Shown here piece after piece: positions 40,531-60,160 of a stretch of DNA of 64,000 nucleotides. The stretch is taken from assembly GCF_009914755.1 (NCBI RefSeq), contig NC_060927.1, one strand, 5' to 3'. The first letter of the stretch is position 1. Every line of letters begins with the position of its first letter. This stretch comes from the human T2T-CHM13v2.0 reference genome, Homo sapiens. The notes below the pieces were generated by a model. That model was not told where the DNA came from. It did not search any database and saw only the letters and a list, made by a program, of their open reading frames with translations. Position numbers and translations under genes: made by a program.

Positions 40531-43442
40531 GTTGTTGAACGTGGAACCAAGGTATGGCTCAGACCTGGCCAAAAACTCAACTTCCAGGACATGCCTACCT
40601 GACATTAACTTCCTGGCATTGCCTGGCTGGCCTTAACTTCTCAGACATCCCCACTCGACCTCAAACAGCTGATGTTATTCACCTGATTTTAACCTTTGGG
40701 TTTGAACCTCCCAGCCTCGTTCACAGAGTCTTCACAGCTGTCCTTTAACATTCCAGTCAGACCCACACAGCTATAGATTCCTGGCCTTAACCTCTGGCCT
40801 TACCCATGTGACCTTAATCTTTTGGCCTTAATCTCCTGTCCTTACAAACTGAATTTTACCCACCTACCTTAACCTCTTCAACTTACACACCTGATGTTAA
40901 CCACATAGCTTTACAGAGCTGGCCTTCACTACCTGGCCTTAACCACTTGGCTTTATTCACCTTCCAGCCCGACCCACTAGGCCTTACCCACGTGGCCTTC
41001 TTAAAGATACGACCATACTTGCCTGCCTGACCTCACCCAGCATGACTTAATCTTCTGGTCTTATATCCATCTGGTGTTAACCACCTACCTTGACTCAGTG
41101 AGACTTCATCTCTAAACAGTTCCCTCTGTGTCCCATTCACGTATAATTAGCCTCCTGTCATTTAGCTGGCTTACCGACTTGGCCTTGATCCTCTGGGAAG
41201 TTTCCCCATTGATTTACCGGCCTGGTGTGTTAACCAAATAGTTTTTTATTCAGCTGGATTTAAACACCTGGTTTTAACAATCTGGATTTACTCACCAGAT
41301 GTTATTAACTTGATGGCCTTAATCACCTTATCTTAGCCTCATAATCTGGCTTTATCCACCTGGCCTTATTAAATTCCTGGCCTTATTTACCCAGTCTTAA
41401 TTTTCTGGCCTAGAAGAACTGGGCTTACCAGCCTGGCCATAACATCCTGCCATTATCCACCTGTTTATAACCAGCTATTTAATTTGCTGGCTTCATTATC
41501 TGGTCAGTATCCAACTGATCTTATCCATGAGGTCTTACACCCTGGCCTTACCCGCCTCATTTTACCACACTGGGCACACCCCATTAGACTTCCCCACCTG
41601 GCTTAACCCTATGGGCCTTACCCAAATGTCCTTAACCTTCTGGTTTTATCTACAGGCCTTAATCCCCGGGCCTTACTCCACTGGATTTATCTGCCTAGGT
41701 TGACTCCTCTGGACTTATCCACCTTCCATTATTCTCTATATTTCCCCTCCCCAGACTTAGATACCCTTCTAAACCCATCTGGAGTTACCCAACTGGCGTT
41801 AAACTCATGGCTTTACCAACCTGGATTACCAACTGAGCTTACCAACCTGGCCTTATCTTTCCATTCTTACTCACATGGACATCCTCTTTACCCACTTAAA
41901 CTCAGCCACCTAGTTGTATGCAGGGAGGCCTTAACTTACTGGCCTTACCTATCTGGCCTTTTAAATAGCTTGGCTTCCTGACCTGGCCTTAACTTCTTGG
42001 TTTTGCCAACTTAGATTTACCCACCTACCTTGTTAAGCTACTGGCCTCACTCATGCAGTATTAATCCCCTGGCCTTGTGTACCTGGCTTACCCACCTGGC
42101 TTTACCCTACTGGCTTTAACATCATATCTTTACCAACTAGAGTTACCCAACTGATCTTACCTACCCAGGCTTACCCAGTTGGCCTTCACAATTAGTCTCA
42201 ACCTTCTGGCTTTACTTAGCTGTCCCAGCCCTACTGACCTTAACCTAGTGTCATTATTCACTGTCCCAGCCCCTTGCTTTACTTTCTTGGACTTCACCTA
42301 TTGGCCTTCCCACATGGCTGTATTTTCTTGGCCTTACCCACTTGGCCTTGTTCAACTACTGGCCTCAACCAGTAGGCATTCTGCAACCGACATTATCAAC
42401 CTGACAGCCATACTCACCTGCCATATTCACTTGCCTGGCCTCAGCCAGCATAACATGACTTAATCTGCTGGCTTCATACCCATCTGATGTTGACTACCTG
42501 GTTTAATTCATCTGGCCTTCACCTCCTCACCTTCCCCTCACTATCTTGCCCACCTAGTATTAGTTTCCTATCATTATTTAGCTGGCTTGGCAACTTGGCC
42601 TTAATCCTACAGGGAATTTCTCCATGGATCTACTGTCCTGGGGTTACACAAATAGTCTTTTCTTTGGCTAAATTTAAATGCCTGGTTTTAACAATCTGGC
42701 CTTACTCACCAGACATTATTAACCTCACTTCCTTAATCACCTTACCCTCACGGCATTATTAAACAAGTTTCATCCATGTGGCCCTATGAAACTCCTGGCC
42801 TTACTGACCCAGGTTTAATTTCCTAGCCTAACTAATGATCTTGGTCTTATCTACCTGGCCATAACTTCTCGCCGTTATCCACCTATTCTTACCTACCTGG
42901 CTTTAATTTGCTGGCCTCAATCTACTGTCAAGACCTACCTGGTCTTGCCCATGGTGCCTTACTGCCCTTTCTTTATTGCTTGGCCTTACCCACCTCAATT
43001 TATCACCCTTGCCAGAACCCTTTAGTTTTCCACACCTGGCCGAAACCTGTGGGCCTTAACCATGTGGTCTCAACAACCTGGATTACCTACCTAGTTTTTC
43101 CACCTAGTCTTCCCCATTGTGAGTTTCATGCTTAGTTTACACAGCTGTCCTTAACCTTCTGGTTTTATTTACCAGGACTTAGCCCCCAGTCTTATTTTTC
43201 AAAACTTACCTCCCTAGGTTTCCTCCCTTGGGCTTATTTCCCTGCCTTTCTTACCTAGATTTTCTCCCACGCCCGAACATAACATACCTTACATTTCCCA
43301 TTTGGACTTCCCCCATCTGGCCTGAACCTCATGGACTCCATAGCTTACCAACCTGGCCTTCTCACTGGCCTTAGCCTTTCATTCTTAGTCACATGGCCTC
43401 AACCTCCTAGCATAATATGCCTAGCATTAAGTTCTCAGCCTT

Positions 43443-57282: not shown

Positions 57283-60160
57283 CACAATTACTCTTAAACT
57301 TCTGGTCTTGCTCACCTCTCCCAGCCCTACTGGCCTTGACCTAATGTCATTATCCTCTGTCCTGACCCTTGGCTTTACTTTCACAGCATTCACCTTTTGA
57401 TGTTACCACATGGCCTTATTTACCTGGGCTTACCCACTTGGTCTTGCTCACCTTCTGGCCTTACCCACTATGTCTCCCCCACCTGACTTCGTTAATCCTA
57501 CAGCCAAACTCACCTGCTGTATTCAACTGCCTGGCATCAGCTAGCATGACTTAATCTGCTGGCCTCAAACCCTTCTGGTGTTGACCACCTGGTTTTATCC
57601 AGCTGGTCTTCACCTCCTTGCCTTCCCTGCACTGTCTTACCCACCTACATTAGCCTCAGGTCATCATTTGGCTGGTTTTACAACTTGCCCTTAATCCTAC
57701 TGGGCAGTTCCCCCGTTGATATCCTGGCCTGGGGTTGCTCAGTCTTTTCTTCAGCTGGATTTAAACACCTGGTTTTAACAACCTGGCTGCACTCAGCAGA
57801 ACTTATAAGCTCATTGCCTTCATCACCTTATCTTGTCCTCATGGTATTATGAACCTGGCATTATCTATCTGGCCTTATTAAACTCCTGACCTTACTCACC
57901 CAGTATTAATTTCCTGGCCTAAAAGTCCTGGCCTTAACCACCTGGTCAAAACTTCCTGCCATTATCCACCTGTACTTATCCACCTGGCTTTAATTTGCTG
58001 GCCTCAATCTCTGGTCATGACCCACCTGATCTTGCCCACGGGGCCTTACTCCCCTATCCCTCACACCTGGCCTTACTCACCTCTTAGGGCCCTGGCCAGA
58101 CCCTATTAGCTTTCCCCACCTGTCCTAACCCTAAGGGCCTTAACCACATGGCCTTAACAACTTGTATTAGCCACCTAGTTTTGCTACCTAGTCTTAAAGA
58201 ACATAGTTACCTACATGGCCTTCACACTTGGTTGACACAACTGTCCTTAACCTTCTGGTTTTATCTATCAGACAGTAACCCTGGATGTATAGCCCTAGGT
58301 TTACTCCCCTGCCTTACTTCCTATATGTACATGCCCTCTTCCCCATTGCTTTTCGATTTAAACACCTCCCATTAACGAACTAGACTTATCCATGTGTCCT
58401 TAACCTCATGGCCTTACCAACCTGGAATGCCAATATAGCTTGTCACCCTGGCCTTTCCACCTGGCCTTAACCTTTTGTTCTTACTCACATGGCTTTAACC
58501 TCTTGGTCTAATCTGCATAGCTTTAACCTCTTAGCATTACCCAGTAAGAGTTGGCCTCCTAGCTCTATTCAGGAGGCCTGAACTTACTGGCCTTATCCAC
58601 CTGGCCTTTTAAATTGCTTGGCTTCCTGGCCTGGTCTTAACCTCATGGTTTTACCAACGTCAATTTACTCACCTGCCTTATTAGCCTCCTGGCCTTGCTC
58701 ATCCAGTATTACGCCCCAGGCTTTATGCACCTGCCTACGCTTCTGACCTTACCCTACTGGCATTAACCTCATGTTCTCACCAACAGGAATTACCCAACTG
58801 ATCTTAGCTACCCAACATTAACCAGTTGGTCTTCATAATTAGTCCTAACTTCTGGTCTTACCCAGCTCTCCCAGCCCTGCTGGCCTTAACCTAGTGTCAT
58901 TATCCTCTGATCATCCTCCCCTGCCTTACTTTTCTGAGCTTCTTCTATTGCCTTATCCACCTGGCCTTAGTAAACTTAGGGCCATACTTACCGGTTGTAT
59001 TCATTTACCTGGCTTCAGCCAGCATGACTTAATTTGCTGGCTAGGTGAAGTTAATCACCTAGCTTTGTTCAACTGGCCTTCACCTCCTAGCCTTCCCCTT
59101 ACCACCGGGTATTAGCCTCCTGTTATTATTGGCTGGCTTATCGACTTGGATTTAACGCTCTTGGTTGTTTCCCTTTGATTGACAGGTCTGTTGTTACCCG
59201 GATAGTCTTTTATTCAGGTGGATACACGCAGCTCGTTTTAACAACATGGCCTTACTCAACAGACATGATTAACCTCATTGTGTTAATCACCTTATCCTGA
59301 TGGTATTCTTAAACAAGCTTCATCCATGTGGCCCTACGAAACTCTTGGCCTTACCGACCCAGGCTTCATTTCCTGGCTTAAATGTCCTGGCCTTACCCAC
59401 CTGGCCATAACTTCCCATGATTATTCACCTGTTCTTATCCACCTGGATTTAATTTGCTGGCTTCAATCTGCCATCAGGACCCACCTGATCTTACCCATGG
59501 AACCATACTCTCCTTCCCTTATTCACTGGCCTTACCACCTCTTTTTACTGCCCTGGCCAGACCCCATCAGCCTCATCCACCTGGGCAAACCTTATGGGCC
59601 ATAACCTAATGGGCTTAACAACCTGTATTACCTACCTAGTTTTAACATTAGTTTTACCCACCATATGTTACCCACATGGCCTTCACACTTGGTTCTTAAC
59701 TTTCTAGTTTTATCTACCAGGCCATACTCTCCTGGCCTTACCCCGCTAAAATTACCTCCATAGGTTTACTTCCCTGGACTTATGCTTCTGCCCTTATTCC
59801 CTGGATTTACCACCTCCTCCCACCCACTTCCCCCTAGACTCATACACCTTGTATTACCCATCTAGATTCACCCATTTGGCCTTAACCTCATGGCCTTTAC
59901 CAACCTAGATTACCAACTTACATTACCTACCTGGCATTCCCACCTGGCCTTAGCCTTTCATTCTAACTCACATGTTTTCTTCCGCCCAGTCTCCAGTCAC
60001 AAACCAAATTATGAAGAGAGTGTGTGTGCCTGTGTGTATGTTTGTGTGCGCAGGCACTGGAATGGTTCTTTGGAAGACAGTGGGTGTGGCACACACACGT
60101 GGCATCAGATCCCAGCCTGGAGCTGTCTACTACATACATGGAGTGTGTGTGTGCCTGTGT

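What the first reader, a model, noticed from the sequence alone, without database searches (positions are those of the whole stretch)
40550..59975. Minus strand of the array is rich in 5' splice-site (U1-binding) words, so the plus strand mimics the U1 snRNA 5' end
Seen: ATACTCACCTG (reverse complement CAG|GTGAGTAT, a near-consensus donor) sits at the same unit position at 42410, 47641, 49733 and 55671. TACTTACCTGGC at 49413-49424 equals U1 snRNA nt 2-13. CTTACCCACCTG (CAGGTGGGTAAG) and CTTACTCACC (GGTGAGTAAG) recur throughout, often as overlapping donors. Established: U1 binding promotes chromatin retention of lncRNAs and suppresses premature polyadenylation. Inference: a - strand transcript would be a dense U1 snRNP landing pad or decoy, and a + strand transcript would be antisense to donor sites.
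Basis: partly seen in the sequence, partly recalled or inferred. Interest (0 to 1): 0.7.

Follow-up and report, generated by a model that had tools for sequence, protein, structure and literature searches.

The report
Old tandem repeat resembling splice donors
A 19-kb ancient tandem repeat inside an intron of the IL12A-AS1 gene really is packed on one strand with words that look like splice-donor (U1-binding) sites, but this follows from the sequence of its 14-base building block and shows no sign of being preserved for that purpose.

Summary
Window 40550-59975 is a degenerate tandem array: a 14-bp subunit, read CCAGGTGGGTAAGG on the minus strand, nested in units of about 1.5 kb. Its minus strand carries 18.4 donor-like sites per kb. 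Dinucleotide shuffles give 7.4 per kb, the flanks 2.7 and the plus strand 0.8. An independent U1-duplex energy scan agrees.

The minus strand is the sense strand of the IL12A-AS1 intron, according to the hub's annotation.

The enrichment is a by-product of the unit. Of 357 donor-like sites, 248 sit in two fixed phases of the 14-mer.

The same array occurs at only two other places in the genome, on chr1 and chr2, as part of an old duplicated segment. Comparing four paralogous copies shows no donor-specific constraint:
- Substitutions in donor columns run at 0.95-0.97 of expectation.
- Strong donors are retained exactly as the null predicts.
- The G(+1) column of the main donor phase is among the fastest-changing.
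- The array diverges 1.48 times faster than its own non-repeat flank.

The 12-mer identical to U1 is a private two-base variant of one unit. No U1 gene homology was found. The minus strand has almost no acceptor-like sites.

Verdict: a neutral old satellite with incidental likeness to donor sites. A U1 function remains untested.

The parts
40550..59975 (-). Degenerate tandem array. The subunit is 14 bp (13 bp in some copies), read CCAGGTGGGTAAGG on the minus strand, and is nested in irregular higher-order units of about 1.45-1.5 kb that are 60-90% alike. The donor-like words are on the minus strand.
   Evidence: TRF finds periods of 13-14 across the region. Repeat families show spacings of about 1.4-1.5 kb and 2.6 kb. 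Autocorrelation peaks at lags 14, 28 and 42; 834 units were picked, with 389 spacings of 14 and 86 of 13. GC skew is -0.12 to -0.40 inside the array and about 0 outside.
42410..42420 (-). ATACTCACCTG (minus strand CAGGTGAGTAT). One of four exact copies at the same unit position; the others are at 47641, 49733 and 55671.
   Evidence: (D17). The word is kept in the chr3a, chr3b and chr2 paralogs; chr1 differs by one base.
49413..49424 (+). A 12-mer identical to U1 snRNA nt 2-13. It is a private variant of an ordinary unit.
   Evidence: In the 4-way alignment the three paralogs read CTTACCCAC(C/T)TGG where this copy reads CTTACTTACCTGG.
43443..44509 (.). A 1,067-bp dispersed repeat inserted into the array. 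It is absent from the chr3b, chr1 and chr2 copies.
   Evidence: Gap in the colinear alignments. In the genome search, 40 of 2181 candidates were scored; all 40 span nearly the full length, one being this copy itself and the other 39 being 90-94% identical.
50312..50641 (-). An Alu inside the array, shared with the chr2 copy at the same site and absent from chr1 and chr3a.
   Evidence: Rfam SRP-type hit at 50359-50505. Colinear 519-column alignment to chr2 across the Alu, with a gap in chr1.
46331..46821 (-). Alu insertions in the array. Further ones lie at about 53064-53394 and 56999-57281.
   Evidence: Rfam SRP-type and Alu-derived miRNA hits, all below the gathering scores.
15657..40549 (.). 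Non-repeat part of the duplicated segment that carries the array at its right end. Patches are 84-92% identical to the chr1 and chr2 loci.
   Evidence: BLAST of the window against the fetched chr1 and chr2 stretches. The right flank is not shared, apart from Alus.

Best explanation
This is an old, non-coding tandem array. A 14-bp minisatellite unit expanded and was then re-amplified as blocks of about 1.5 kb. It was carried as the right end of a segment of 40 kb or more that now sits at three places in the human genome (chr3, chr1 and chr2). The chr2 copy was made within primates.

The G-rich strand of the unit reads CCAGGTGGGTAAGG. By its own sequence this holds two overlapping donor-like words, CAG|GTGGGT and TGG|GTAAGG. 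Every well-kept unit therefore resembles a 5' splice site on the minus strand, and its complement resembles the U1 5' end on the plus strand.

The array is decaying neutrally, and the donor likeness is a by-product. Because the minus strand is the sense strand of an IL12A-AS1 intron, the nascent RNA probably does attract U1 transiently. These would be orphan donors with almost no acceptors nearby, so there would be no splicing, and at most a local effect of the telescripting type that protects against premature polyadenylation. Nothing shows that this matters.

Shown here: the structure of the array, the enrichment, its origin in the unit phases, the paralogs, and the lack of constraint. Inferred: how the array arose, U1 binding, and the absence of function.
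For: Structure.

Origin in the unit:
- Donor G(+1) falls in unit column 5 (154 sites) or column 9 (94 sites) for 248 of 357 sites at 6 bits or more.
- Only 240 of 834 recognisable units still carry such a site.
- The best-kept unit columns are CCA and TAA, not the donor GT.

Family:
- Only three loci were found in the genome. All 10 hits of a 24-mer (up to 2 mismatches) lie in them, and the control gave 0.
- All three arrays have the same strand-specific density: 18.4, 21.1 and 19.2 per kb.
- The left flank is shared and the right flank is not.
- A shared Alu dates the chr2 copy to primates.

No constraint, from a 4-way alignment of 3689 columns with 85-88% pairwise identity:
- With a leave-one-out ancestor and substitutions only, donor columns have 211 substitutions against 222.8 expected (0.95) at 6 bits, and 101 against 104.0 (0.97) at 8 bits.
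- Strong donors are retained in 103 of 143 cases, against a null of 102.7 +/- 5.6.
- Identity among the three sequences not used to pick the sites is 0.775-0.79 at G(+1) and 0.77-0.79 at G(+5). That is no better than the background of 0.75-0.80.
- Unit column 5, the G(+1) of the main donor phase, changes at 1.22 times the context-scaled expectation.
- The whole array diverges 1.48 times faster than the non-repeat part of the same duplicated segment, 0.134 against 0.091.

Other points:
- The U1-identical 12-mer is private to one copy.
- There was no U1 hit among the 34 Rfam matches at E up to 10.
- No stop-to-stop ORF exceeds 139 aa, and the only minus-strand ORF of 100 aa or more (59963-60313, 116 aa) lies almost wholly past the array's end.
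- Crude acceptor-like sites on the minus strand run at 0.10 per kb, against 1.2-1.5 in the flanks.

Look-elsewhere estimate, inferred from the flank densities: about 2% of random 14-mers would hold a site of 8 bits or more in some phase or strand, and about 8% a site of 6 bits or more.
Against: Some tests do show excess retention of weak donors:
- The pairwise permutation test gave 156 of 250 retained against 121.9 +/- 7.4 (z 4.6). Across all minus-strand settings z ranged from 3.1 to 5.5.
- The leave-one-out test with gaps gave 243 of 320 against 212.5 +/- 7.6 (z 4.0).
- The substitution-only test gave 268 of 329 against 249.3 +/- 7.6 (z 2.5).
- I put the first two down to ascertainment and to long gaps being scattered by the null, but the last is a small residual excess.

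The T and A columns of the unit change more slowly than expected. T10, A11 and A12 (the TAA of GGTAAG), T6 and A3 run at 0.61-0.78 of the context-scaled expectation. These include T(+2) of both donors. A weak constraint on GTAA is therefore not excluded, although all A/T columns share the pattern and no key G column does.

Limits of the tests:
- The 5'ss matrix was recalled from memory, not MaxEntScan.
- No expression data, U1-binding data or cross-species data could be consulted.
Confidence: 0.8

Rival explanations
1. The array is a functional U1 snRNP landing pad in the IL12A-AS1 primary transcript. Dense orphan donors would recruit U1, either to suppress premature cleavage and polyadenylation across the long intron or to tether the nascent RNA to chromatin.
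For: - Density of U1-complementary sites is 8-13 times that of the flank on the sense strand of the host lncRNA intron (plus the hub's annotation).
- The minus strand carries 2.06 polyadenylation-signal hexamers per kb.
- It is nearly free of acceptor-like sites (0.10 per kb). The U1-dependent chromatin-enriched elements of Yin et al. likewise mostly lack acceptors (passages of bioRxiv 10.1101/310433).
- Weak donors are retained slightly above the null (z 2.5), and the GTAA columns are slow.
- All three paralogous arrays keep the same density.
Against: - There is no donor-specific constraint. Ratios are 0.95-0.97, strong donors sit at the null, and the G(+1) column runs at 1.22.
- The array diverges faster than its flank.
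- 594 of 834 units have no site of 6 bits or more.
- Equal density in paralogs is expected from common descent alone.
- An intron is removed and degraded, so tethering adds little. This last point is an inference.
Confidence: 0.08
2. The array acts at the DNA level as a cluster of E-box sites (CACCTG / CAGGTG) for repressors of the ZEB or SNAIL type, or for bHLH factors.
For: CACCTG or CAGGTG occurs 97 times in 19.4 kb (5.0 per kb), against 65 times in 44 kb of flanks (1.5 per kb). RefSeq enhancer marks lie just outside both ends, by the hub's table. The factor specificities are recalled from memory, not tested.
Against: CAGGTG columns evolve faster than expected: 55 substitutions against 40.9, a ratio of 1.34. 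No functional-element mark lies inside the array, by the hub's table. The hexamer is simply part of the unit consensus.
Confidence: 0.04
3. A plus-strand transcript acts as a U1 mimic, or as antisense to donor sites, pairing with the 5' splice sites of other RNAs.
For: The plus strand carries many words close to the U1 5' end, with 9 of 10 near-matches to U1 nt 2-13 lying in the array.
Against: - No plus-strand gene covers the array in the hub's table.
- There is no homology to U1 beyond the short word.
- The exact 12-mer is a private variant.
- A bare RNA lacks the U1 snRNP proteins needed for function. This is established knowledge, recalled from memory.
Confidence: 0.01
4. The strong purine/pyrimidine and G/C strand asymmetry, not the donor words, is the relevant property. 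One example would be formation of R-loops or other non-B DNA during IL12A-AS1 transcription.
For: GC skew runs from -0.12 to -0.40 over 19 kb, with G on the RNA-like strand of IL12A-AS1. The minus strand is 62.6% purine. Divergence is 1.48 times faster than in the flank.
Against: GC content is only about 46%. There is no direct evidence. Faster divergence is also expected from exchanges between unequal repeat copies.
Confidence: 0.04

Closest known systems
F7 intron 7 37-bp VNTR with repeated 5' pseudo-sites (Borensztajn et al. 2006, PMC1557585; abstract read)
   Same: An intronic minisatellite whose unit contains a donor-like word, giving a run of potential 5' splice sites in the sense orientation that normally stay silent.
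   Different: In F7 the first repeat spans a real exon-intron boundary, so one copy is the authentic donor, and there are only a few near-identical units. Here no exon lies in the window. The array is 19 kb, and its 1.5-kb blocks are 60-90% alike. Its sites are orphans deep in an intron.
12-nt minisatellite of the interferon-induced 6-16 (IFI6/G1P3) gene that provides multiple splice donor sites. The paper is recalled from memory; only later papers that contain the phrase were seen in the listing.
   Same: A tandem repeat whose unit is itself a donor site.
   Different: There the repeat sits at an exon end and its donors are used. Here no use is known.
U1-recognition motifs that promote chromatin retention of noncoding RNA (Yin et al., bioRxiv 10.1101/310433; passages read)
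   Same: CAGGUGAGU-type words without nearby acceptors in a noncoding transcript. CAGGTGAGT occurs 7 times on the array's minus strand.
   Different: Those elements were defined by localisation assays and by U1 binding. Here only the sequence likeness exists, and the array is intronic rather than part of a mature lncRNA.
Human macrosatellites and large locus-specific VNTRs such as DXZ4 and D4Z4 (Warburton et al. 2008, PMC2588610; passages read)
   Same: A multi-kb tandem array with kb-scale units at a few loci.
   Different: The units here are much more diverged (60-90% identity) and are themselves built from a 14-bp minisatellite. In the passages my six search terms returned, the paper lists no array at 3q25-26, none at 2q32, and none at 1q42 other than hsat4 and 5S.

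Membership tests
Tandem array with higher-order structure (minisatellite-derived macrosatellite) | Head-to-tail short units with a fixed period | tested here: met
   TRF finds periods of 13-14. Autocorrelation peaks at 14, 28 and 42, and 389 of the spacings between the 834 units equal 14.
Tandem array with higher-order structure (minisatellite-derived macrosatellite) | Longer repeat blocks in register | tested here: met
   Families of 7-18 copies with spacings of about 1.4-1.5 kb and 2.6 kb, at 60-93% identity.
Functional 5' splice sites | Match to the donor consensus and U1 complementarity | tested here: met
   173 sites at 8 bits or more and 38 at 10 bits or more. About 41 sites reach -12 kcal/mol or lower (2.1 per kb).
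Functional 5' splice sites | Lies at the end of an exon, with an upstream acceptor and an annotated junction | tested here: not met
   The hub's table gives no IL12A-AS1 exon in the window. Crude acceptor-like sites on the minus strand run at 0.10 per kb, against 1.2-1.5 in the flanks. RNA-seq junctions were not available.
Functional 5' splice sites | Purifying selection on G(+1), T(+2) and G(+5) | tested here: not met
   Substitution ratio is 0.95-0.97 in donor columns. G(+1) identity is 0.775-0.79, the same as background. Unit column 5 runs at 1.22. T(+2) and the A columns are slow, but so are all A/T columns.
U1-dependent chromatin-retention element (Yin et al.) | U1 recognition motif in the RNA | tested here: met
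   The motif definition comes from passages of 10.1101/310433.
U1-dependent chromatin-retention element (Yin et al.) | U1 snRNP binding in vivo and U1-dependent localisation | not testable with these tools
   Needs RAP or CLIP data and fractionation data.
U1 snRNA gene or pseudogene | Match to the U1 covariance model (RF00003) | tested here: not met
   No U1 hit among 34 matches at E up to 10 in 38000-62000. The same model finds 42 U1 loci elsewhere in the genome.
Protein-coding repeat | Long open frame or a known domain | tested here: not met
   The longest stop-to-stop frame is 139 aa and runs out of the array. 0 of 3 array ORFs sent to Pfam gave a hit; these were 3 of the 17 listed. In the left flank, 0 of 113 ORFs of 60 aa or more gave a hit.

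The most novel reading that the evidence does not exclude
Three paralogous arrays, spread by duplication at least partly within primates, could each be a block of hundreds of orphan 5' splice sites with almost no acceptors. As U1 snRNP docking platforms in long noncoding transcripts, they would locally enforce telescripting or chromatin tethering. The slow GTAA core of the unit would be the trace of that use.
Probability: 0.05. Interest if true: 0.6.

Novelty: new member of a known kind. Interest (0 to 1): 0.2.

Why it matters
If the likeness were functional, this would be a natural, repeat-encoded U1 platform inside a lncRNA at an autoimmune GWAS locus. IL12A-AS1 appears in papers on Behcet's disease, primary biliary cholangitis, systemic sclerosis and juvenile idiopathic arthritis; I saw only the listing.

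As it stands, the result is mainly cautionary. A short repeat unit that happens to resemble a signal gives large and statistically solid motif enrichments that say nothing about function.

The by-products are modest but concrete. One is a three-locus family of degenerate arrays that my literature searches did not find described. The other is a measured case of a repeat diverging about 1.5 times faster than its own single-copy flank.

Tried and rejected
- Is the array part of a coding mobile element? No. 0 of 113 ORFs of 60 aa or more in 20000-40600 hit Pfam, and 0 of 3 array ORFs did.
- Is it derived from U1? No Rfam hit.
- Is it described in the literature? The unit sequence gave 1 unrelated paper, a TSG101 splice junction. 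IL12A-AS1 with 'tandem repeat' gave 1 unrelated paper. The passages of Warburton 2008 that I searched list no such array. In the IL12A-AS1 listing, 15 of 64 papers were shown and none concerned the array.
- My first conservation tests gave z values of 3-5.5 in favour of retention. I set them aside as biased. Sites chosen in one of the two compared sequences are enriched for unmutated positions, and permuting long gaps inflates loss in the null. The leave-one-out, substitution-only versions with control matrices replaced them.
- Cross-species comparison, expression data, junction reads and U1 occupancy could not be examined with the tools at hand.
- MaxEntScan was not available.

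
Full report
**What is there**

Window 40550-59975 is a tandem array.
- TRF reports periods of 13-14 bp all along it.
- Base autocorrelation peaks at lags 14, 28 and 42. An iterated 14-column profile picks 834 units, with 389 spacings of exactly 14 and 86 of 13.
- On the minus strand the unit reads CCAGGTGGGTAAGG. Its best-kept columns are CCA and TAA.
- These short units are nested in longer blocks. Repeat families of 7-18 copies recur at about 1.4-1.5 kb or about 2.6 kb, with 60-93% identity.
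- The plus strand is C- and T-rich. GC skew is -0.12 to -0.40 inside the array and about 0 outside, and the minus strand is 62.6% purine.
- Transposons interrupt the array. Alu-type hits lie at about 46331-46821, 50359-50640, 53064-53394 and 56999-57281. A 1,067-bp dispersed repeat lies at 43443-44509. In the genome search, 40 of 2181 candidates were scored; one is this copy and the other 39 are 90-94% identical over nearly the full length.
- There is no coding potential. The longest stop-to-stop frame is 139 aa, and the only minus-strand frame of 100 aa or more (59963-60313, 116 aa) lies almost wholly past the array's end. 0 of the 3 array ORFs I sent to Pfam gave a hit, out of 17 listed.

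**The observation**

All quoted words are present.
- ATACTCACCTG occurs 4 times, against 0.06 expected, and 0 of 100 shuffles reach 4.
- The four lie in one register of an 11-copy family. Four copies are exact, one has one change and six have two changes (D17).
- TACTTACCTGGC sits at 49413. With up to 1 mismatch there are 10 matches against 0.28 expected, 9 of them in the array.
- I confirmed that this 12-mer equals U1 nt 2-13 by reading a U1 gene found in the same genome with the Rfam model.

Donor-like density was measured with a 9-column donor matrix. Its frequencies are recalled from memory; it is not MaxEntScan.
- At 6 bits or more, the minus strand has 18.4 sites per kb (357 sites). 200 dinucleotide shuffles give 7.43 +/- 0.58 (largest 9.42), the flanks 1.5-2.8 and the plus strand 0.77.
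- At 8 bits or more, it has 8.9 per kb, against 2.83 +/- 0.34 in shuffles and 0.5-1.0 in the flanks.

A measure that does not depend on my matrix is ViennaRNA duplex energy with the 11-nt U1 5' end.
- At -8 kcal/mol or lower: 11.6 per kb on the minus strand, 0.46 on the plus strand and 1.5-1.8 in the flank.
- At -12 kcal/mol or lower: 2.1 per kb against 0.

By the hub's annotation the minus strand is the sense strand of an IL12A-AS1 intron, so the second refutation test (no minus-strand transcription) does not apply either.

**Where the enrichment comes from**

- Of the 357 sites at 6 bits or more, 154 have their G(+1) in unit column 5 (CAG|GTGGGT) and 94 in column 9 (TGG|GTAAGG). Of the 173 sites at 8 bits or more, 133 fall in these two phases.
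- The enrichment is therefore the unit consensus read 834 times, and it is already much eroded. Only 240 of 834 units still hold a site of 6 bits or more.
- From the flank densities, I infer that a random 14-mer repeated in tandem would contain a site of 8 bits or more in some phase or strand about 2% of the time. For 6 bits or more the figure is about 8%. Among the many human minisatellites, some donor-rich ones are expected.

**Relatives**

- The genome holds the family at only three places: this one, C1:230,678,800-230,692,000 (about 13 kb) and C2:187,469,100-187,475,400 (about 6.3 kb).
- All 10 genome hits of a 24-mer from the array (up to 2 mismatches) fall in these three loci. Six are on chr3, three on chr1 and one on chr2. 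The reversed control gave 0.
- The arrays are not isolated. Patches of window 15657-40549 are 84-92% identical to the DNA left of the chr1 and chr2 arrays, whereas the right flanks share only Alus. The array is thus the right end of an old duplicated segment.
- 0 of 113 ORFs of 60 aa or more in 20000-40600 hit Pfam, so I see no coding mobile element.
- An Alu at 50312-50641 is shared, at the same site, with the chr2 copy. It is absent from chr1 and from the sister block on chr3. The chr2 copy was therefore made after an Alu insertion, that is, within primates.
- Substitution-only divergence of the flank is 0.093. With recalled neutral rates this is tens of millions of years.
- All three arrays show the same strand-specific donor density: 18.4, 21.1 and 19.2 per kb at 6 bits or more on the minus strand, and 0.8 or less on the plus strand. 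That is what common descent predicts.

**Is the donor likeness preserved?**

I aligned four paralogous blocks of about 3.4 kb: two on chr3, one on chr1 and one on chr2. The alignment has 3689 columns and 85-88% pairwise identity, roughly star-like.

The crude tests favoured retention.
- Pairwise permutation: 156 of 250 retained against 121.9 +/- 7.4 (z 4.6). Across minus-strand settings z ranged from 3.1 to 5.5.
- Leave-one-out with gaps: 243 of 320 against 212.5 +/- 7.6 (z 4.0) at 6 bits, but 97 of 147 against 91.3 +/- 5.1 (z 1.1) at 8 bits.
- Both are biased. Sites chosen in a compared sequence are enriched for unmutated positions, and long deletions get scattered by the null.

Removing those biases gave the following.
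- Donor columns were picked in one sequence and scored among the other three. At 6 bits they are 0.79-0.82 identical, against 0.75-0.80 elsewhere. At 8 bits the four references split: 0.823 against 0.789, 0.810 against 0.753, 0.775 against 0.771, and 0.786 against 0.804.
- The key positions are no better than background: G(+1) 0.775-0.79 and G(+5) 0.77-0.79.
- With a leave-one-out ancestor and substitutions only, donor columns have 211 substitutions against 222.8 expected (0.95) at 6 bits, and 101 against 104.0 (0.97) at 8 bits.
- Retention is 268 of 329 against 249.3 +/- 7.6 (z 2.5) at 6 bits, and 103 of 143 against 102.7 +/- 5.6 (z 0.05) at 8 bits.
- Five column-permuted control matrices give ratios of 0.97-1.45.
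- Trinucleotide-context rates were taken from the non-repeat part of the same duplicated segment. Against them the array as a whole diverges 1.48 times faster than its flank, 0.134 against 0.091.
- Per unit column, the G(+1) of the main donor phase (column 5) runs at 1.22 of the scaled expectation. G4 runs at 0.99, G9 at 0.84 and G13 at 1.01.

The only slow columns are the A and T columns: A3 0.78, T6 0.69, T10 0.68, A11 0.73 and A12 0.61. This pattern follows base class rather than donor information content. However, it includes T(+2) of both donors and the TAA of GGTAAG, so a weak constraint on that core cannot be excluded.

The E-box reading fares worse. CAGGTG columns have 55 substitutions against 40.9 expected.

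**The U1 identity**

In the 4-way alignment the three paralogs read CTTACCCAC(C/T)TGG where the 49413 copy reads CTTACTTACCTGG. The identity to U1 nt 2-13 is thus a private CC-to-TT variant in one unit. No U1 match appears among the 34 Rfam hits at E up to 10.

The ATACTCACCTG word is shared by chr3a, chr3b and chr2, and is one base off in chr1. That is ordinary at 86% identity.

**Mechanism**

Most likely (0.8), the array is a neutral, decaying satellite whose unit happens to read like two overlapping donors.

When IL12A-AS1 is transcribed, U1 probably touches this RNA, as it does any 5'ss-like word. The minus strand is almost free of acceptor-like sites (0.10 per kb against 1.2-1.5). Exon definition and splicing are therefore unlikely, in line with the absence of annotated exons.

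Its 2.06 polyadenylation-signal hexamers per kb are like the flank. A local telescripting effect is conceivable but unproven.

The decoy idea is quantitatively weak, because U1 is extremely abundant. That point is recalled from memory. The plus-strand mimic has no transcript or homology behind it.

A U1 recognition site, CAGGUGAGU, drives chromatin retention of reporter RNAs, and most such elements lack acceptors (passages of bioRxiv 10.1101/310433).

**Comparison and novelty**

The closest precedent is the F7 intron-7 37-bp VNTR. Its repeated, functional but silent 5' pseudo-sites follow the authentic donor (abstract of PMC1557585). The 6-16/IFI6 minisatellite is a second case, recalled from memory.

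The present array differs in three ways. It is deep in an intron with no exon attached. It is far larger and far more decayed. It exists as three paralogous loci.

I found no description of it.
- The unit sequence gave one unrelated paper.
- IL12A-AS1 with 'tandem repeat' gave one unrelated paper.
- The passages of the Warburton 2008 catalogue returned by my terms list no array at 3q25-26, none at 2q32, and none at 1q42 other than hsat4 and 5S.
- The IL12A-AS1 listing showed 15 of 64 papers, none on the array.

I rate it a new member of a known kind, of low interest unless U1 occupancy and an effect are shown.

Noticed in passing
window 15657-59975; G000:C1:230667657-230692000; G000:C2:187443543-187475400: The array is the right end of an old duplicated segment. 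The segment is 40 kb or more on chr3, patchy, and present at three chromosomal sites at 84-92% identity. The right flanks are unrelated apart from Alus.
   Followed up: partly
window 50312-50641 and the chr2 copy (about G000:C2:187473070-187473400): An Alu sits at the same site in the chr3b block and in the chr2 array but not in chr1 or chr3a. The chr2 array therefore descends from a chr3b-type block after an Alu insertion, within primates.
   Followed up: yes
window 43443-44509: A 1,067-bp insertion splits one array block. It belongs to a dispersed family: of 2181 candidates, 40 were scored, one being this copy and 39 being 90-94% identical over nearly the full length. It is the size of a solo LTR; the family name is not established.
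   Followed up: partly
window 41886-52850 compared with 15972-40482: The array diverges 1.48 times faster than the non-repeat part of the same duplicated segment between paralogs (0.134 against 0.091 substitutions per site). G>A on the minus strand is the commonest change.
   Followed up: partly
unit columns 10-12 (TAA) throughout 40550-59975: The TAA core of the 14-mer is the best-kept part among units (0.81-0.92). It is also the slowest between paralogs, at 0.61-0.73 of the context-scaled expectation. All A/T columns are slow, and the cause is unexplained.
   Followed up: partly
window 40550-59975, minus strand: The minus strand is an acceptor desert. Crude polypyrimidine-plus-YAG sites run at 0.10 per kb, against 1.2-1.5 per kb in the flanks, because that strand is 62.6% purine.
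   Followed up: yes
window 40550-59975: The E-box CACCTG/CAGGTG occurs 97 times in 19.4 kb, against 65 times in 44 kb of flanks. It is part of the unit consensus and is not conserved (substitution ratio 1.34).
   Followed up: yes
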